Below are positions 35,490 through 44,915 of a stretch of 64,000 nucleotides of DNA, in pieces. Under the pieces are notes generated by a model that saw only the letters and a program-made list of their open reading frames with translations, was not told where the DNA came from and searched no databases. Every line of letters starts with the position of its first letter. The first letter of the stretch is position 1. This stretch comes from Methylotenera sp. (GTDB taxonomy: Bacteria; Pseudomonadota; Gammaproteobacteria; Burkholderiales; Methylophilaceae): positions 17,077 to 81,076 of the forward strand of contig JBEBJI010000006.1 in NCBI GenBank assembly GCA_040079935.1, given 5' to 3'. The translations under genes were made by a program, and so were the position numbers.

Positions 35490-36353
35490 TCATTTTTTAC
35501 TATCTTCCATCAGCTGTAAGACTCTAGGTGTAAAAATAAATTGCAATGCTAAGCCCATTTTCCCTCCAGGTACAACAATCGTATTTGGCCGCGTAATCAT
35601 TGAGCCATGTAGCATGCTGAGTAGATATTGAAAATCCACTCCTTTGGAATCAGCAAAACGTATGACCAAAATACTTTCGTCAGGGCTAGGTATGTCTTTA
35701 GCGATGAATGGATTAGAGGTGTCTACGGTTGGTACGCGCTGAAAATTGATATGCGTGCGCGAAAACTGTGGGCAAATATGATGGATATAATCCGGCATTC
35801 TATTCAAGATGGTATCAATTACCGCTTCCGATGAATAACCACGCATTTTTTGGTCGCGATGTAGCTTTTGTATCCATTCTAAATTGATAATTGGTACTAC
35901 GCCTACCAATAAATCCACATGTTTTGCAACGTCTGCATCAGGCCCAACATAGCCACCATGCAAGCCTTCATAAAATAAAATGTCAGATTCTGCATCCTCC
36001 CACGGGGTCATGGTGCCGGCTTTTTGAGAGTAAGGACGCCCTTCTTCATCACTGTGAACATATTTTCTTGTTTTGCATTTGCCAGTTTTGCCGAAAGTTT
36101 CAAATGTTTTGGCGAGTTCTCCCAAAATATTCGCTTCTGGGCCAAAATGGCTAAAATTTGCGCCAGACACAATGTCGCGTTGCTTTATCAGCGCGTCCAT
36201 TTCAGTGCGCTCGTAGCGATGGTATGAATCGCCCTCAATTACTGTAGCATTGATTTTTTCCCGCTTAAATATATGCTGAAAACTCTGCCTAACTGTAGTT
36301 GTTCCAGAACCAGATGAACCAGTAATTGCTATAATTGGAAATTTTTTGGACAT
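35490..36353 (-). CDS. prkB: Phosphoribulokinase (proteobacterial type)
   Basis: ITGSSGSGTT, EGDSYHRY, HFGPEAN, FYEGLHG, FQRVPTVDTSNPF; ATG at 36353. Confidence 0.95.
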   Translation of the reverse strand: MSKKFPIIAITGSSGSGTTTVRQSFQHIFKREKINATVIEGDSYHRYERTEMDALIKQRDIVSGANFSHFGPEANILGELAKTFETFGKTGKCKTRKYVHSDEEGRPYSQKAGTMTPWEDAESDILFYEGLHGGYVGPDADVAKHVDLLVGVVPIINLEWIQKLHRDQKMRGYSSEAVIDTILNRMPDYIHHICPQFSRTHINFQRVPTVDTSNPFIAKDIPSPDESILVIRFADSKGVDFQYLLSMLHGSMITRPNTIVVPGGKMGLALQFIFTPRVLQLMEDSKK

Positions 36354-36399
36354 ACTCCACCCTCTTAGCACGTTATTTATTTATGAATATTAAGGTTTT

Positions 36400-37305
36400 T
36401 TAGGTTTGCTTGGCATCAAGTCCGCCGCTAAACACGCGAGAAGCGCGAATATCGGCCTCAGTAATTAATGACAAATCTTCTGCTGTTGTTTCTTTTTTAT
36501 GCTTAATTGCGTCATTAAACAATCGGTTCGCTTGCCGCAATCTAGCACGATCTAGTGCATTTCTAATCGAACGTGCATTGGCAAAATGCGGCTGCTGTTT
36601 ACGCCTCAGAATGTAATCTTGCATGGCCTTTAGGGCAGATTTGTCCAAATCATAATGCATAGAATCCGCCATTAACTTTGTGATTTCCAGCAGCTCATTT
36701 TCATCATAATCAGGGAAATCCACATGATGCGCGATGCGCGACGACATGCCTGGGTTCGATTTAAAGAACGTGCCCATGCGGTCTTGATAACCCGCCAAAA
36801 TCACTACTAAATCATCTCTGTGGTTTTCCATGGTTTGCAATAAAATTTCGATAGACTCTTGCCCGTAATCGCGCTCATTTTCTGGCTTGTAAAGGTAATA
36901 AGCCTCATCAATAAACAGCACGCCGCCCATAGCCTTTTTAATGACTTCTTTGGTTTTTGGCGCAGTATGGCCGATATATTGCCCTACCAAGTCATCGCGC
37001 GTCACGCTCACCACATGATTCTGCCGAATGTAGCCTAAACGATGCAAAATATCAGCCATTTTAAGCGCAACTGTTGTTTTGCCTGTGCCTGGGTTGCCTG
37101 TAAAACACATGTGTAAGCTAGGTTTCGTAGCTTCAATGCCTAATTGCAGCCGCGCTTTGGTAATGAGCAAATAGGCCGCAATCTCGCGTATGCGCTGCTT
37201 CACAGGTACTAAACCGACTAAATCTTGATCAAGCTTATCCAGCACCTCATTAATGTGAGATTCTTCTAGTAGCGCTTGAATATCGATTTTGTCGGTTTTA
37301 GCCAT
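36400..37305 (-). CDS. cbbX: Red-type RuBisCO activase CbbX
   Basis: [39 protein letters not shown]. Confidence 0.97.
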
Positions 37306-37739
37306 TAATAACGTTCGCCTTCTGGCTTATCAGTCGCATAAGAATGAATAGTATAGCGGATGTTGCGGCCATTGGTTTCTTGACGCACCAAGCCAAATCC
37401 TGGTTCATTTTTAGGGCGGTTTACAATATAAGACATAGTCGGACTTTCCACACCACGCACCGAGCTAAAAGCCATGACGCGGATGTAATGATTGGGGAAC
37501 GTTTTGCGGCAATTGTTAATTTCCAGCAAAATGCCAGCAGGATCTTTCAAATCGAACATCGGCGCGCCGTACATCTCCCAATAAGTATTGCGCGGATGCG
37601 GATCATCGGTATATTCCACTGAAAGCGCCCAGCCTTTGCCCAGCGCATACTTAATTTGCGCAGTGATTTGCACGTCTGTTAGCGGCGGCAGAAAAGAAAA
37701 CTGCCCTTGCGTTACGATTCCATTTGGGTTGGTCATCAT
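37305..37739 (-). CDS. cbbS: RuBisCO small subunit, red type
   Basis: [27 protein letters not shown]-terminal YTIHSY hairpin extension. Confidence 0.97.
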
Positions 37740-37776
37740 GGTTAAATTCTCCTTGAATTCTTAAAAGCTAGAATAT

Positions 37777-39276
<1,500 letters not shown>

Positions 39277-39330
39277 TCACCCTTCCAGTTAAAGAATAGT
39301 TTCGATACGCTACTTTATTAAACTTTAAAG

Positions 39331-39377
39331 TTAAGTTATATTAATAAATTCTTTACATAAGATTAAGCATTGCTTAA
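39331..39377. promoter_or_regulatory. CbbR (LysR) operator motifs
   Basis: TNA-N7-TNA at 39331, 39353 and 39364; the last is within the palindrome TTAAGCATTGCTTAA. Confidence 0.6.
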
Positions 39378-39417
39378 CCATGCTTATATTTATGCCAATT
39401 TTTTTGAGAAAATTTTT

Positions 39418-40338
39418 TTGAAAAACCTTACTTTGCGTCAAATCAGAATATTTATAAGTGCAGCAAAGCACTTAAGCTTTACCCGCGCGGCAGAAGAATT
39501 GCACATTTCAGCACCCGCTATTTCCTTGCAAATCAAGGAGATGGAAGAAGATATTGGCGTGAGTTTATTCACGCGCGAAAACCGAAAAGTCGCACTGACA
39601 TCTGCAGGCGAATATTTTTTACTTTATGCGCGCCGAGTTTCTAGCACACTCAACGAAGCCAATACCATGATGGAGCGCTTTCGCGGCACGCAATTTAGGC
39701 ACTTAAAAATTGGCGTGGTGAGCACGGCGAAGTATTTTTTACCGCATTTGTTGGTGGAATTTAAAAAAGATTACCCTAACTTGCAAATTAAAATTGAAGC
39801 GCGTAACCGCCAACAATTAGTAGAATTGCTACGCGATGGCGAGATTGACATCGCAATTATGGGCTTGCCGCCTAAGGAAATTGACACTCGAGTTGAATCG
39901 TTTGCTAACCACCCGCACGTATTTATTGCCAGTCCAAACAACCTGCTGGCGAACAAGCTCAACATTCCGCCAGATGCGCTCACGCAATATGAAATGATTA
40001 CGCGTGAACCTGGCTCTGGTACGCGCGCGATCATGGAAAAATACTTTGCCGAGCATGGTATTGCGCCGATTGTTAGCATGGAAATGTCCAGTAACGAGAC
40101 GATTAAACAAGCGGTAATGGCTGATTTGGGCATCTCTTTCGTGTCTTTGCACACCATCGGCAGCGAGCTTGCAACTAAGCAAATCGCTATTTTGGATATT
40201 CAAGATACGCCCATCATCCGCACCTGGCATGTGGTTGCGCTGAATAAACGCAACGCAAGTCAAGCGGCAGAAGCGTTTAGATATTTTGTACTAGAAAAAG
40301 GTGGGGAGATTTTAACCAGCATGTTTGCTGAAATTTAG
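39418..40338 (+). CDS. cbbR: LysR regulator CbbR
   Basis: LTLRQ...SFTRAAEELH HTH, REPGSGTR, SNETIKQAVMA; divergent from cbbL; TTG start at 39418 assumed. Confidence 0.92.
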   Translation: MKNLTLRQIRIFISAAKHLSFTRAAEELHISAPAISLQIKEMEEDIGVSLFTRENRKVALTSAGEYFLLYARRVSSTLNEANTMMERFRGTQFRHLKIGVVSTAKYFLPHLLVEFKKDYPNLQIKIEARNRQQLVELLRDGEIDIAIMGLPPKEIDTRVESFANHPHVFIASPNNLLANKLNIPPDALTQYEMITREPGSGTRAIMEKYFAEHGIAPIVSMEMSSNETIKQAVMADLGISFVSLHTIGSELATKQIAILDIQDTPIIRTWHVVALNKRNASQAAEAFRYFVLEKGGEILTSMFAEI

Positions 40339-41160: not shown

Positions 41161-42933
41161 CTATTTTGGTAGTGCATAAACCAATAAAGCATCGCCTTGT
41201 TTGTAACCAAATATCGAGCTACCGCCACTCGCCACTGCGATATATTGCACGCCGTCTATGGTGTAAGTAATCGGTGGCGCGTTCACGCCAAACTCTGATT
41301 TCGCTTGCCACAACAATTCGCCAGTTTGGCTGTTATAAGCGTTAAAGTGACCGTCGCCCTCACCCATAAATACCAATCCACCTGCGGTTGCAAGCACGCC
41401 ACCAATCAACGGTTGCGCAGTTTTAGTTTGCCAAGCAATTTTTCCCGAGTTCAAATCAATGCTCGAGAGTAAGCCCCAGCGCGGGTCTTGCGTCGGCTCA
41501 CTGGCCGCATATCTAATGGCTGGAGCACCATCTTTGCTGGGCGTTTCGTGTAAGGTATATTTAATCGGGGCATGAATTGCCGCGACAAATACGCGCTGAT
41601 TGGCTTCATCCACGCTCACGGGTGACCAATTTGCGCCGCCCAAAATGCCTGGGTAACCCACCATGCCTTCAAAGGTGGCTTTTTTAAACATGTTTTGTTG
41701 CGGCACAAAGGCATCTGATTTTTTCAGCAATTTACTTGTAGCTCTATCATGAATATAGAACCAACCTGTTTTACTGGCCTGACCAACGGCGGCAATGGTT
41801 TTGCCACCTTGCTGATAATTAAATAGTACGGGTGGACTGGCTAAATCGTAGCCCCACAAATCGTGCGGCACTTGCTGATAATGCCATTTAAGCGCACCAG
41901 TGTTGACATCCAGCGCAACTAAAGACACTGTATAAAGATTATCACCTGGGCGAGAAATATCGTTCATCTGCGGACTTGGATTGCCTGTGCCAAAATAGAG
42001 CGTATCGCTTTCGCTATCTATCGCAGGCGTGCTCCAAGCCGATCCACCACCAAAGCGCGCAGAGTCTGCATATTTGGCTGCATCAGCTTTTTCTTGCGCC
42101 ACATCGCGGTTCAAGTTGATGCCATCTTCGGTTGTCTCGGTAAATTTGCCTTCCCAACCTGCATCTGGAATCGTGTCAAATTGCCACACACGCTTGCCGT
42201 TTTGCACATCGTACGCTGCCAAAAACCCTGGTCGACCAAAGCGTCCAGCCACGCCGATAACCGCGCCTAGCGGCGCATCTGCTGTCGGGTTATCAATATG
42301 CAAGCCATAACCCACGCCCGTAATACCAACAATGACTTTGCCTTTGTACACCACTGGCGCCATGGCGATGCCAATGCCCGTGCCGCCAGTCACTTTGCGC
42401 GCGCTGTTCGGGTCATCTTTATTCAACGCATCTTGACCTTCGGTAACAATTGCGCCCTCCACCACGTCAATATCCCACTCTTTCGCGCCAGTGCTCGCGT
42501 TGAGCGCAATCAAGCGTGCATCTACCGTACCAATAAATACTCTACCATTGCTAACTGCAACGCCCCTATTCGCTGGGCCACAGCACATTTTCCAATCTTT
42601 TCTGCGGTCATGCTCATAACGCCAAAGCTGCTTACCGGTTTTTGCATTCAACGCGACGACATGATTGAAAGGTAACGATAAATACATCACGCCATTTTGC
42701 ACAATCGGCGTGGCTTGGAAGCTAGCTGTGATGCCGCTTTTGTACACCCAAGCTTGCGTCAAATCTTTCACATTTTTAGTGTTTATTTGTGTGGCGGATG
42801 AAAAACGTTTGCTAGAATAATCTTGCCCGTAGCTCGGCCAGTCTTGGTTTTTAGCGCTATTTTGTTGTGTTATTTGCGTGCATGCTGTCAGCAAAGCGAA
42901 AGCGGCAATCAGTAAAGTTCTTAAACGTTTCAT
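41161..42933 (-). CDS. PQQ-dependent dehydrogenase-family lipoprotein, atypical active site
   Basis: Lipobox LTAC; WPSYG, FQATP, CCGPANRG, GTGNP, GGANW, W-motif propeller repeats; ATG at 42933. Confidence 0.9.
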   Translation of the reverse strand: MKRLRTLLIAAFALLTACTQITQQNSAKNQDWPSYGQDYSSKRFSSATQINTKNVKDLTQAWVYKSGITASFQATPIVQNGVMYLSLPFNHVVALNAKTGKQLWRYEHDRRKDWKMCCGPANRGVAVSNGRVFIGTVDARLIALNASTGAKEWDIDVVEGAIVTEGQDALNKDDPNSARKVTGGTGIGIAMAPVVYKGKVIVGITGVGYGLHIDNPTADAPLGAVIGVAGRFGRPGFLAAYDVQNGKRVWQFDTIPDAGWEGKFTETTEDGINLNRDVAQEKADAAKYADSARFGGGSAWSTPAIDSESDTLYFGTGNPSPQMNDISRPGDNLYTVSLVALDVNTGALKWHYQQVPHDLWGYDLASPPVLFNYQQGGKTIAAVGQASKTGWFYIHDRATSKLLKKSDAFVPQQNMFKKATFEGMVGYPGILGGANWSPVSVDEANQRVFVAAIHAPIKYTLHETPSKDGAPAIRYAASEPTQDPRWGLLSSIDLNSGKIAWQTKTAQPLIGGVLATAGGLVFMGEGDGHFNAYNSQTGELLWQAKSEFGVNAPPITYTIDGVQYIAVASGGSSIFGYKQGDALLVYALPK

Positions 42934-43050
42934 CGAGGATTCCAATCAATTTACTATACAAGTTAGTATATACCGAGTATGTTAAAGTTTCCAAGCGGTT
43001 TCAAGCTAAAATATGCATTACTTACTAAAATAAATCATTCGCTAAGTCAC

Positions 43051-43746
43051 ATGCAATATTCATCTATAAAATGGATTAATAATCAACCATATTCAATTGA
43101 TTTTAATGATATTTATTTTAATTCAGAAGATGGTTTAGCAGAAACTGAATACGTATTTGTTGAAAAAAATCAGCTCAAACAACGTTTTGCCATGCTTAAT
43201 AATAAAACTTTCACCATCATTGAAACTGGCTTTGGTACAGGCTTAAATTTTTTAGCAGTTGCCGCTCACTGGCTAGCATTGGCGCCACCTAATGCCATTT
43301 TGCATTACATCAGTATCGAAAAATTTCCGCTAAATTTGGACGATTTACGTCGCGCGCACGCAACTTGGCCGCAGTTTGCAGAAATTTCACATGAGTTTTT
43401 GCAACATTATACCAATTTAAAAGCTGGAAATAACCAAATAAGCATGCCTGAAATCCGCATGGATATTAGCTTGCAGGTCGGCGATGTTTTAACTGTTTTA
43501 AAAAAAATACAAAGCAAAGCAGACGCTTGGTTGTTAGATGGTTTTGCGCCCGCAAAGAATGCTGATATGTGGTCGCCAGAGGTATTTGCGCAAATGGCAA
43601 GATTATCAAAAAACCGCACAACATTTGCCACATTCACGAGCGCTGGCGATGTGCGCAGAGGTTTGGAGAATGCAGGATTTAAGATTGAAAAGCACGCGGG
43701 TTTTGGCAAAAAACGTGAAATGCTAAGTGGGAAATTTTTAGGGTGA
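43051..43746 (+). CDS. mnmD: tRNA mnm5s2U methyltransferase (MnmD / MnmC N-half)
   Basis: FNDIYFN, ETGFGTGLNF, DAWLLDGFAP, GFGKKREML. Confidence 0.92.
   Translation: MQYSSIKWINNQPYSIDFNDIYFNSEDGLAETEYVFVEKNQLKQRFAMLNNKTFTIIETGFGTGLNFLAVAAHWLALAPPNAILHYISIEKFPLNLDDLRRAHATWPQFAEISHEFLQHYTNLKAGNNQISMPEIRMDISLQVGDVLTVLKKIQSKADAWLLDGFAPAKNADMWSPEVFAQMARLSKNRTTFATFTSAGDVRRGLENAGFKIEKHAGFGKKREMLSGKFLG
43443..43481 (+). repeat. 39-bp repeat, copy inside mnmD
   Basis: CATGCCTGAAATCC GCATGGATATT AGCTTGCAGGTCGG (MPEIRMDISLQV). Confidence 0.75.
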
Positions 43747-44915
43747 AAACAGCGATTGTCATCGGCGGCGGCATCGCGGGTTGCAGCACTGCTTATTTTC
43801 TCTCTCAGCGCGGCGTCCCAGTGACACTCGTCGAACGTCACGAAAATCTAGCGCAGGAAGCATCGGGCAACCCTATTGCAGTGCTTTACCCTAAATTTAG
43901 CACCAAGCCAGATGCCTCAACTTTATTGGCGTTGCAAGGTTTTGAGTTCACTTTAAACTTGCTTAAAAACCTGCCAAATTCTACCGATTTTTTTAATGCC
44001 TGCGGCATCATTCAACTGGCTTTTAACGCACGCGAGCAAGCTCGTCAGTTAGCGCTTGGCGACAATCAATATGCGAAATTAATTGATGCAAATGCAGCAA
44101 CAAAAATCGCGGGTATTGTCTTGAAAACGGGTGGTTTATATTTTCCACAAGCAGGTTGGGTTAAGCCGCAAGCCTTATGCGAAAAGCTTTGCAACCATGC
44201 GCTGATTACAAAAATGACTTCTACTAGCGCATTGACTATTAAAAAAAGCGAATTAGGATGGCAAGTGAATGATGTGCTTTTGGCAGATATTGTGGTGATT
44301 TGCAACGCCAACGATGTGCAGCAATTTGCGCAGTATAGAAGCGCGAAAATCACGCCTATGCGTGGGCAAGTCAACTTTTTTGCAGAAAATGCGCAAAGCA
44401 AAAATATCAAGACAATTATTTGCAGCGATCACTACCTAAGCCCCGCGGTTGCTGGTTGGCACGCGATTGGCACCAGTTACGCGCCGAACGATTTAAACCA
44501 GAATATTAGTGAGTCTGATACGCGCGAAAATTTAAATGCATTGCGCAAAATGGCGCCCGAAATTGCCGAAGGTTTAGCCATAGACACCATAAAAAGTCGC
44601 GTTGCTTGGCGTAGCCAAACCCTAGATTACATACCACTTGCAGGGCGATTAATTAATGAAGAAATATTACGCAACAATCCACCACGCTTTAACGTTAATC
44701 CTGCCGATTTGCCTTGGTATGACGGCTTGTATGTGAATGCGGGGCATGGCTCTAAAGGCATGATTACCGCGCCGATTTGCGGCGAATTGATTGCCAGTTT
44801 AGCCACTAACAGCGATTTACCAATTGAGCCAAAACTCGCATCTAAGTTAAACCCCAGTCGATTCTTGTTGCGCGAATTTGGCGCAAAACTGTTAGCAAAT
44901 TCGCTGTACAAATAG
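43743..44915 (+). CDS. mnmC: FAD-dependent cmnm5s2U oxidoreductase (MnmC C-half)
   Basis: IVIGGGIAG, EASGNP, RGQV, GHGSKG; 4-nt overlap with mnmD. Confidence 0.9.
   Translation: MKTAIVIGGGIAGCSTAYFLSQRGVPVTLVERHENLAQEASGNPIAVLYPKFSTKPDASTLLALQGFEFTLNLLKNLPNSTDFFNACGIIQLAFNAREQARQLALGDNQYAKLIDANAATKIAGIVLKTGGLYFPQAGWVKPQALCEKLCNHALITKMTSTSALTIKKSELGWQVNDVLLADIVVICNANDVQQFAQYRSAKITPMRGQVNFFAENAQSKNIKTIICSDHYLSPAVAGWHAIGTSYAPNDLNQNISESDTRENLNALRKMAPEIAEGLAIDTIKSRVAWRSQTLDYIPLAGRLINEEILRNNPPRFNVNPADLPWYDGLYVNAGHGSKGMITAPICGELIASLATNSDLPIEPKLASKLNPSRFLLREFGAKLLANSLYK

What the first reader, a model, noticed from the sequence alone, without database searches (positions are those of the whole stretch)
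41161..42933. Lipoprotein PQQ dehydrogenase with W-G-Y-D in place of W-D-x-D and no evident metal-binding Glu
It keeps the vicinal disulfide (CCG) and GTGNP Asn of methanol/alcohol dehydrogenases. The catalytic-Asp position (MxaF WDYA, XoxF WDYD) is Gly (41845-41856 encodes WGYD), while the +2 Asp diagnostic of lanthanide enzymes is present. The region normally carrying the metal-ligand Glu (GAE-x-GVRG) reads GITGVGYGLH plus an insertion of about 20 aa before GRPGFLAAYD. This suggests a different metal geometry, mechanism or substrate. No cytochrome or mxaJ-like partner is adjacent.
Basis: partly seen in the sequence, partly recalled or inferred. Interest (0 to 1): 0.62.

Follow-up and report, generated by a model that had tools for sequence, protein, structure and literature searches.

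The report
Orphan quinoprotein lacking catalytic Asp and metal Glu
This gene encodes a well-conserved relative of the PQQ-dependent alcohol and methanol dehydrogenases that has lost the two acidic residues these enzymes use for catalysis and metal binding; nearly all Methylophilaceae methylotrophs keep it, and its function is unknown.

Summary
The minus-strand gene 41161-42933 encodes a 590-aa lipoprotein with an 8-bladed PQQ-dehydrogenase fold. It keeps the vicinal Cys-Cys, the stacking Trp, the GTGNPS Asn, the ADH-type Lys and the "+2" Asp. Gly replaces the catalytic Asp (WGYD). It has no metal-ligand Glu: profile alignment puts Arg235 at that position, after a 24-aa insertion.

This is not a one-off degenerate copy. 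It belongs to a monophyletic clade under strong purifying selection (dN/dS about 0.05). The clade is present in 103 of 117 good Methylophilaceae genomes, including 1.2-1.4 Mb streamlined ones, and in about 12% of sampled Burkholderiales. Outside Methylophilaceae, 49 of 50 carrier genomes also encode pqqC, against a base rate of 16% for all sampled genomes of the class. No cytochrome or other partner gene is conserved next to it.

My best reading is a functional PQQ protein, probably an oxidoreductase, with a rebuilt, much less acidic active site, so with different metal use, base or substrate. I found no characterised member and no paper describing the clade.

The parts
41161..42933 (-). CDS of the orphan PQQ-propeller protein (590 aa from the ATG). 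Residue numbers used in this report are those of P0001, which starts 4 codons upstream at the TTG at 42945.
   Evidence: 100% identical 590-aa protein; PF01011, 4.4e-96; AF2 pLDDT 88.7; Foldseek best matches 1kb0 and PedH
42880..42933 (-). Signal peptide with lipobox: MKRLRTLLIAAFALL-TAC (Cys22).
   Evidence: A lipobox-like motif occurs in 186 of 335 clade members by a crude regex.
42706..42723 (-). SFQATP. Gln77 stands where canonical enzymes have the PQQ-pocket Glu (MxaF Glu55).
   Evidence: canonical set Glu 83%; clade Gln or Pro
42610..42624 (-). WRYEH. His112 is a clade-specific invariant at the start of the loop that leads to the Cys-Cys.
   Evidence: His 100% in the clade, 16% in the canonical set; 329 of 335
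42562..42585 (-). CCGPANRG: the vicinal Cys121-Cys122 and Arg127, both retained.
   Evidence: 324 of 335
42379..42450 (-). Clade-specific insertion 1 (residues 166-189) in blade 2.
   Evidence: (unaligned against canonical profiles)
42244..42315 (-). Clade-specific insertion 2 (residues 211-234, VGYGLHIDNPTADAPLGAVIGVAG). It lies between the PQQ-contacting GxTG and the position of the metal Glu, and carries the conserved GYGLH-x-D/E motif.
   Evidence: AF2 predicts a small hairpin (E215-217 / E228-230) at pLDDT 63-71. Nonsynonymous change is lower than the gene average in all but the L088 comparison.
42223..42243 (-). RFGRPGF. Arg235 aligns with the canonical metal-ligand Glu (E-x-G-V-R-G).
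   Evidence: Arg in 199 of 234 clade sequences
42034..42051 (-). GGGSAW. Trp304 is the PQQ-stacking aromatic residue; it is Tyr in the gammaproteobacterial sub-clade.
41974..41991 (-). GTGNPS. Asn322, the metal-ligand Asn, is retained.
   Evidence: 335 of 335
41845..41856 (-). WGYD. Gly365 replaces the catalytic and metal-binding Asp. Asp367 is the '+2' lanthanide-type Asp.
   Evidence: 120 of 121; Gly 100% in the clade, Asp 100% in the canonical set
41761..41781 (-). QASKTGW. Lys392 is the ADH-type counterpart of MxaF Arg331 and is retained.

Best explanation
The gene encodes a functional, PQQ-binding periplasmic lipoprotein. It is most likely still an oxidoreductase, and it belongs to a distinct, uncharacterised clade of the type I PQQ alcohol-dehydrogenase superfamily whose active site has been rebuilt.

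Shown:
- The 8-bladed fold is present.
- The residues that sandwich and hold PQQ are retained: Cys121-Cys122, Trp304, Arg127, Lys392, Asn439-Trp440, and Thr209-Gly210 in the GxTG turn.
- Two of the four protein metal ligands of XoxF are retained: Asn322 and Asp367.
- Three acidic residues are lost together: MxaF Glu55 to Gln, Glu177 to Arg, and Asp303 to Gly.
- A conserved 24-aa insertion sits exactly between the PQQ-contacting turn and the former Glu.
- The gene is under strong purifying selection and is tightly coupled to PQQ biosynthesis across genomes.

Inferred:
- PQQ binds in the usual pocket.
- The cation site is either weakened or rebuilt, using Asn322, Asp367 and possibly the insertion's His216/Asp218. 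It suits at most a divalent ion.
- Asp367 or a clade-specific residue such as His112 or Glu265 acts as the proton acceptor.
- The far less negative pocket accepts a substrate that canonical enzymes do not, for example an anionic or otherwise non-alcohol one.
- Electrons leave to a periplasmic carrier encoded elsewhere.
For: - Fold and family: PF01011 at 4.4e-96; AF2 pLDDT 88.7, pTM 0.89; Foldseek best matches are quinohemoprotein ADH 1kb0 and PedH 6zcv, E about 1e-45; phmmer against 1kb0 gives 3.7e-80.
- Retained PQQ-pocket and ligand positions, and the changed ones, were measured on 61 clade against 63 canonical sequences and on 335 clade sequences.
- The clade is monophyletic in a tree of 104 representatives.
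- Purifying selection: dN/dS 0.05-0.08. The insertion has pN 0-0.03 against 0.09-0.11 gene-wide in the four closest comparisons.
- Retention: 103 of 117 high-quality Methylophilaceae genomes and 28 of 29 genera, including 1.2-1.4 Mb genomes; 47 of 397 Burkholderiales; 12 of 396 across the class.
- Link to PQQ: in the class sample, pqqC is present in 11 of 12 carriers (this genome included) against 65 of 400 genomes overall, Fisher p = 1e-8, and in 39 of 39 non-Methylophilaceae Burkholderiales carriers. This genome has pqqB and pqqC.
- The vicinal disulfide is not needed simply to hold PQQ, as far as I know (PQQ glucose dehydrogenases lack it). It is kept in 324 of 335 members, whereas visibly degenerate side branches (P0127, P0131, P0138) have lost it.
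Against: - The residue regarded as the catalytic base in every characterised family member is Gly, and the bidentate metal Glu is missing. The XoxF1 La3+ site uses Glu192, Asn276, Asp318 and Asp320 (doi 10.1101/2020.02.25.964783).
- No redox partner gene is conserved nearby.
- One complete carrier genome (G316) has neither pqqB nor pqqC, and no other PQQ dehydrogenase.
- The protein scores below the curated TIGR03075 cut-off: 413.9 against 480.
- No activity, cofactor or metal data exist, and I could not inspect the model's active-site geometry.
Confidence: 0.5

Rival explanations
1. It is a non-catalytic PQQ-binding protein. The lipoprotein holds, buffers, senses or hands over PQQ in the periplasm, for example for XoxF maturation. 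It kept the cofactor pocket but dispensed with the catalytic base and the metal site.
For: The loss is selective: the base Asp and the metal Glu are gone while the PQQ-contacting residues remain. The gene is almost perfectly coupled to pqq genes. It is near-universal in XoxF-dependent Methylophilaceae, including minimal genomes. No redox partner is adjacent. The probable Methylovorus orthologue Msip34_1311 shows low, condition-independent transcript levels (the orthology rests only on a shared ECF-sigma neighbour).
Against: The vicinal disulfide, Lys392, Asn322 and Asp367 are strictly retained, and they matter for redox chemistry rather than for simple binding. The top-face loops, including a new insertion, are very strongly conserved, which looks like a substrate site. 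G316 keeps the gene without any PQQ synthesis or other PQQ enzyme to serve. No precedent for such a protein is known to me.
Confidence: 0.25
2. It is an ordinary Ca2+- or Ln3+-dependent alcohol dehydrogenase whose catalytic residues have moved in sequence but not in space. Asp367 takes the place of the base Asp, helped by the flexible Gly365. The insertion's Asp/Glu218 supplies the carboxylate that Glu177 normally gives.
For: An acidic residue is conserved in the insertion: GYGLH-x-D/E in 210 of 324 sequences matched, and [DE]AE in the other sub-clade. Asp367 is invariant. The ancestor was of D-Y-D type. In XoxF the side chains of residues i and i+2 of this loop both point at the metal.
Against: Arg, not a neutral residue, sits at the old Glu position in 85% of members. 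Glu55 and Thr159 are also changed. The insertion is modelled as a protruding hairpin at only moderate confidence. The whole clade falls below the curated family cut-off.
Confidence: 0.15
3. It is a PQQ-independent beta-propeller with a structural or binding role, analogous to BamB or other PQQ-repeat proteins.
For: It is a lipoprotein with an 8-bladed propeller and gives weak hits to BamB models. G316 carries it without PQQ synthesis.
Against: The BamB equivalog score of 95.8 is far below the cut-off of 285, and a separate BamB-like gene exists on contig C50. Retention of the Cys-Cys and the other PQQ-pocket residues, and the 49 of 50 co-occurrence with pqqC outside Methylophilaceae, would be unexplained.
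Confidence: 0.05

Closest known systems
Type II quinohemoprotein and type I quinoprotein alcohol dehydrogenases (Comamonas QH-ADH 1kb0; P. putida PedH 6zcv; P. aeruginosa ExaA 1flg)
   Same: 8-bladed PQQ propeller; about 30% identity; best sequence and fold matches. Shares the vicinal Cys-Cys, the stacking Trp, the GxGNP Asn, Lys in place of MxaF Arg331, and, like PedH, Asp at +2.
   Different: Gly instead of the catalytic Asp. Arg instead of the metal Glu, preceded by a 24-aa insertion. Gln instead of the pocket Glu, and Ala instead of the pocket Thr. No haem domain, a lipoprotein anchor, and no ped/exa-type neighbours.
XoxF4 lanthanide methanol dehydrogenases of the same genome (contigs C27, C73, C39)
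   Same: Same superfamily, same organism and same PQQ supply; both carry Asp at the +2 position.
   Different: Only 32% identical. XoxF4 has the full Glu/Asn/Asp/Asp ligand set (SGAEFGVRC, HDEWDYDG). Published Methylophilaceae genomes put one xoxF copy in a conserved xoxFJGG cluster (PMC4109929); I did not check this in this genome. This protein has two of the four ligands and no partner genes.
Sister clade of D-Y-D quinoproteins, e.g. representative P0126 with a C-terminal cupredoxin-like domain
   Same: Nearest relatives in the tree. They share the WEG...R..E loop of blade 3 and the +2 Asp.
   Different: The sister sequences keep the pocket Glu, the metal Glu and the catalytic Asp, lack both insertions, and P0126 carries its own putative electron-acceptor domain.
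TIGR04528 'acido-empty-quinoprotein group A'
   Same: Quinoprotein homologues of uncertain cofactor status; second-best NCBIfam hit.
   Different: Score 320.6 against a cut-off of 650, so not a member. By its family name, that family occurs in genomes without PQQ synthesis, whereas this clade tracks pqqC.

Membership tests
[quoted passage not shown] | 8-bladed beta-propeller built of PQQ repeats | tested here: met
   PF01011 4.4e-96; AF2 model pTM 0.89; Foldseek matches 1kb0, 6zcv, 1flg and 4mae at E 1e-40 to 1e-45
[quoted passage not shown] | Score at or above the curated family cut-off | tested here: not met
   413.9 bits against a cut-off of 480.05. Clade members in 11 other genomes also fall below it, while their canonical paralogues pass.
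[quoted passage not shown] | Vicinal Cys-Cys over the PQQ ring and a stacking aromatic residue beneath it | tested here: met
   Cys121-Cys122 and Trp304 by alignment; 324 of 335 clade members keep the CC...NRG motif
[quoted passage not shown] | Catalytic Asp (MxaF Asp303) in W-D-[YF]-x | tested here: not met
   Gly365; Gly in 100% of the clade against Asp in 100% of 63 canonical sequences
[quoted passage not shown] | Metal-ligand Glu (MxaF Glu177) in G-A-E-x-G-V-R-G | tested here: not met
   Arg235 by HMMER and hhalign, Gly212 by MAFFT; no conserved Glu in either register
[quoted passage not shown] | Metal-ligand Asn in G-x-G-N-P | tested here: met
   Asn322 in GTGNPS; 335 of 335
[quoted passage not shown] | PQQ available and bound; dehydrogenase activity | not testable with these tools
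   The genome encodes pqqB and pqqC, and outside Methylophilaceae 49 of 50 carriers have pqqC. Binding and activity need biochemistry.
Lanthanide-dependent ADH/MDH (XoxF, ExaF, PedH) | Extra Asp two residues after the catalytic Asp | tested here: met
   Asp367, invariant in the clade
Lanthanide-dependent ADH/MDH (XoxF, ExaF, PedH) | Complete Glu/Asn/Asp/Asp ligand set, as in XoxF1 (Glu192, Asn276, Asp318, Asp320) | tested here: not met
   Only the Asn and the +2 Asp remain (ligand set from doi 10.1101/2020.02.25.964783)
Lanthanide-dependent ADH/MDH (XoxF, ExaF, PedH) | Adjacent xoxG/xoxJ-type or cytochrome partner genes | tested here: not met
   Neighbours are an ion-channel-like protein, split mnmC genes and a TPR glycosyltransferase. 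No neighbour is conserved across 92 loci, and the 12 distant loci have no nearby CxxCH protein: the only one found is a 91-aa ORF about 7 kb away in one locus.
BamB (outer-membrane assembly lipoprotein) | Match to the BamB equivalog model above its cut-off | tested here: not met
   TIGR03300 95.8 bits against 285.2; NF008351 74.5 against 423. A separate BamB-like ORF lies on contig C50.
TIGR04528 acido-empty-quinoprotein group A | Score at or above the curated cut-off | tested here: not met
   320.6 against 650

The most novel reading that the evidence does not exclude
This would be a cation-independent PQQ enzyme. The guanidinium of Arg235, which sits where every characterised relative has the metal-binding Glu, together with the loss of two further carboxylates, would replace Ca2+/Ln3+ as the positive charge that polarises the PQQ C5 carbonyl. 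That would give the first metal-free PQQ dehydrogenase, acting on an anionic substrate, and it would be a near-core enzyme of the most abundant freshwater and coastal methylotrophs.
Probability: 0.1. Interest if true: 0.85.

Novelty: new variant of a known kind. Interest (0 to 1): 0.62.

Why it matters
1. The general-base Asp and the metal Glu are treated as defining features of PQQ alcohol and methanol dehydrogenases. A large clade under strong selection that lacks both, yet tracks PQQ biosynthesis, either uses PQQ by different chemistry or has a new PQQ-related role.

2. The gene is close to core in Methylophilaceae. It survives in what the locus titles suggest are LD28/OM43-type genomes of 1.2-1.4 Mb, where little dispensable is kept. 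I found no mention of it in the papers I checked on these organisms.

3. Surveys that call lanthanide dependence from the +2 Asp alone would score this clade as lanthanide enzymes, although half of the protein ligands are missing. The rule needs the other ligands to be checked too.

4. The question can be tested directly. Genetics exist for Methylotenera mobilis JLW8, and the protein should be easy to express without its lipobox.

Tried and rejected
- **Active-site geometry.** The AF2 job returns only confidence values and secondary structure. No coordinates reach the Python box, so I could not measure distances from Asp367, Asp218, His216, His112, Glu265 or Arg235 to the PQQ site.
- **Expression.** The only indirect data are published transcript tables. 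Msip34_1311 ('Pyrrolo-quinoline quinone', next to an ECF sigma factor, as in locus L117) is low and constitutive. Mmol_1214 could not be confirmed as the orthologue because its neighbours differ.
- **Operon or partner search.** Clustering the neighbours in 80 close and 12 distant loci found only local synteny: mnmC and a TPR glycosyltransferase, or a methyltransferase-like gene I read as a CFA synthase plus an ECF sigma/anti-sigma pair. All of these are on the opposite strand. No nearby cytochrome candidate turned up either: the only CxxCH ORF within about 8 kb of the 12 distant loci is one 91-aa ORF about 7 kb away.
- **Literature.** There is no paper with 'WGYD' and PQQ. The XoxF4/XoxF5 survey of Methylophilaceae (PMC6028718) mentions only a few 'divergent' sequences and evidently did not capture this family. 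The ocean and weathered-rock PQQ surveys do not describe it. The Keltjens 2014 classification was not available to read.
- **Pseudogene or artefact: rejected.** The frames are intact, with no internal stops, in all matches, and dN/dS is about 0.05.
- **BamB and TIGR04528 membership: rejected** on scores.
- **Functional link to the adjacent RuBisCO island: rejected.** None of 80 orthologous loci has it.
Full report
**What is there.** The finding lies on the minus strand. The ORF runs 41161..42945 from a TTG, but the ATG at 42933 (MKRLR...) is the likely start, because a database protein 100% identical to it has 590 residues. I use the numbering of P0001, which begins at the TTG and so runs 4 residues ahead. 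The N-terminus, MKRLRTLLIAAFALLTAC, is a signal peptide ending in a lipobox, with Cys22 as the lipidated residue. Pfam gives PF01011 (PQQ propeller) at 4.4e-96. The methanol/ethanol-family model TIGR03075 scores 413.9 bits, below its curated cut-off of 480, and no NCBIfam model is passed. The best solved relatives are the quinohemoprotein ADH 1kb0 (3.7e-80), PedH 6zcv/6zcw and ExaA 1flg; XoxF and MxaF are more distant. An AlphaFold2 model built on 61 clade sequences is confident (pLDDT 88.7, pTM 0.89), and Foldseek returns the same structures.

- Three independent alignments place Gly365 at the catalytic Asp and Asp367 at the +2 position that marks lanthanide enzymes. These are the alignment to the genome's own XoxF4 (HDEWDYDG), to 1kb0 (PGDNWDYT) and clade profile against canonical profile (hhalign).
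- MAFFT aligns the metal-ligand Glu to Gly212 (GITGVGYG against GCSGAEFG). HMMER and hhalign align it to Arg235 (RFGRPGF against EYGIRGY), after a 24-residue insertion, VGYGLHIDNPTADAPLGAVIGVAG.
- The two segments resemble each other, which is why the methods differ. There is no Glu in either register.
- Across 234 clade sequences the position is Arg in 199, Leu in 16, and Glu once.
- A second insertion of about 24 residues (166-189) lies in blade 2.

**It is a clade, not an accident.**
- The search of 50%-identity representatives returned several representatives with WGYD, the same insertions, and Gln (or Pro) at the pocket Glu. In a tree of 104 representatives they form one branch.
- Their sisters read WDYDA or WDYDT with the normal Glu residues. 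One of them, P0126, ends in a cupredoxin-like domain. The +2 Asp is therefore most simply inherited from a D-Y-D ancestor.
- I compared 61 clade sequences, down to 40% identity, with 63 canonical ones. The positions conserved in canonical enzymes but changed here are:
  - MxaF Glu55 to Gln or Pro;
  - Thr159 to Ala or Asn;
  - Glu177, lost;
  - Asp303 to Gly, in 100% of the clade;
  - Trp243, which stays Trp or becomes Tyr.
- Kept in both groups are Cys121, Cys122, Arg127, Asn322, Asp362 and Asp367 (Lys392 and Trp440 are invariant within the clade).
- Clade-specific invariants are His112, Glu265, Arg280, Glu285 and Asn555. Asp158 and His458 are nearly invariant.
- Glu265, Arg280 and Glu285 (the WEG...R..E loop) are shared with the sister P0126.
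- Inside the insertion the motif GYGLH-x-[DE] is conserved in two sub-clades. The third has GY[ST]...[DE]AE.

**Selection and distribution.**
- Against orthologues of 80-88% identity, dN/dS is 0.05-0.08, with dS near saturation. The insertion is more constrained than the rest of the gene: pN 0-0.03 against 0.09-0.11 in the four closest comparisons.
- The gene is present, with no internal stops, in 103 of 117 high-quality Methylophilaceae genomes and 28 of 29 genera. This includes all sampled genomes of one 1.2-1.4 Mb genus and most of another. Locus titles include Candidatus Methylopumilus and OM43.
- It occurs in 47 of 397 Burkholderiales genomes and 12 of 396 genomes across the class. The pattern scan confirmed 598 related stretches across the species collection, though one of the two patterns is not specific to the clade.

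**Link to PQQ.**
- In the class sample, 11 of 12 carriers have pqqC, against 65 of 400 overall (Fisher p = 1e-8).
- All 39 non-Methylophilaceae Burkholderiales carriers have pqqC. This genome has pqqB and pqqC.
- The coupling is partly confounded, because a paralogue of PQQ enzymes is expected to arise in PQQ-using lineages.
- There is one clear exception. G316 is a 100%-complete genome with no pqqB, no pqqC and no other PQQ dehydrogenase, yet it has a fully conserved clade member. Its congener G452 has the pqq genes beside three canonical dehydrogenase genes.

**Context.**
- In the window the gene stands alone between an ion-channel-like membrane protein on the opposite strand and the divergently transcribed, split mnmC genes, followed by a TPR glycosyltransferase.
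- Neighbour clustering over 80 close loci shows only lineage-level synteny, always on the opposite strand.
- Twelve distant loci share no neighbour family. The only CxxCH ORF within about 8 kb is one 91-aa ORF about 7 kb away in one locus.
- The RuBisCO/PRK/CbbX/CbbR island next door is unrelated. None of the 80 orthologous loci has it.

**How it probably works.**
- Shown: the fold, the retained PQQ pocket, the selective loss of three carboxylates with an Arg gained, the constrained insertion at the heart of the site, and the PQQ coupling.
- The XoxF1 La3+ site uses Glu192 (bidentate), Asn276, Asp318 and Asp320, plus three PQQ atoms (doi 10.1101/2020.02.25.964783). Here only the Asn and the last Asp remain.
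- Inferred: PQQ still binds, and the cation site is weakened or rebuilt. With at most Asp367 and perhaps Asp218 as carboxylates, charge balance argues against a trivalent ion. The proton acceptor would be Asp367 or a clade-specific residue, and the much less negative pocket implies a different substrate class.
- From propeller topology, the B-C and D-A loops form the cofactor face. His112, both insertions, the WEG loop and Asn555 all lie in such loops. This is an inference, not a measurement.
- The strict retention of the vicinal disulfide is my main reason to prefer a redox-active protein over a mere binder. As far as I know the disulfide is dispensable for PQQ binding, since PQQ glucose dehydrogenases lack it. 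It is also lost in the visibly degenerate side branches.
- I put about 0.5 on an active quinoprotein with a non-canonical site, 0.25 on a non-catalytic PQQ-binding role, 0.15 on a canonical geometry restored by relocated residues, and 0.05 on a PQQ-independent propeller.

**What is known.** No solved structure exceeds about 31% identity. Sources name the protein only generically: 'PQQ-binding-like beta-propeller repeat protein', 'pyrroloquinoline quinone-dependent dehydrogenase', and 'glucose dehydrogenase' in JGI. I found no paper on it. The Methylophilaceae XoxF survey reports that minimal genomes encode a single enzyme, XoxF4-1 (PMC6028718). By that account this family was overlooked, probably because it falls near the survey's 31% identity threshold. 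Other first-stage notes of this scan flag the same WGYD pattern in at least seven other genomes, and none has a follow-up.

**Limits.** The mechanism is therefore inference. The anatomy, phylogeny, selection and PQQ coupling are measured.

**Verdict.** This is a real, well-conserved and uncharacterised variant of the PQQ dehydrogenase family with a rebuilt active site. It is interesting to specialists and directly testable.

Noticed in passing
window 35490-40338: A form I RuBisCO island (cbbR divergent from cbbL-cbbS-cbbX-prk), followed by tpi and pntAB-like genes, lies next to the quinoprotein gene in a RuMP-type methylotroph. None of the 80 orthologous loci has it at this place. RuBisCO large subunit is present in 25 of 117 good Methylophilaceae genomes, and in 3 of the 12 sampled genomes of this genus (this genome included).
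   Followed up: partly
protein P0126 (sister-clade representative), residues about 600-752: The nearest canonical (WDYDA, Glu-containing) relative carries a C-terminal domain with a type-1-copper-like motif (LCGVPGHAISGM). This suggests a quinoprotein fused to its own cupredoxin electron acceptor.
   Followed up: no
genome G316 (locus L103 / L115): A 100%-complete genome keeps a fully conserved WGYD-clade gene but has no pqqB, no pqqC and no other PQQ dehydrogenase. Its congener G452 has pqqBC beside three tandem canonical dehydrogenase genes.
   Followed up: partly
L117 6501-7759 (G019) and 7 other loci: An ECF sigma factor and anti-sigma pair is divergently adjacent to the orthologue in 8 of 80 loci. 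The same arrangement appears in Methylovorus (Msip34_1310/1311) in published tables. I do not know whether it regulates the gene.
   Followed up: no
window 42979-44915: The mnmC function is split into two genes that overlap by 4 bases: a Methyltransf_30 protein (42979-43746) and a DAO/FAD oxidoreductase (43743-44915). In E. coli they form one bifunctional protein.
   Followed up: no
genome contigs C27, C73, C39: There are three XoxF4-type genes with the full lanthanide ligand set. The copy on C39 runs off the contig end. I did not look for an mxaF-type gene.
   Followed up: partly
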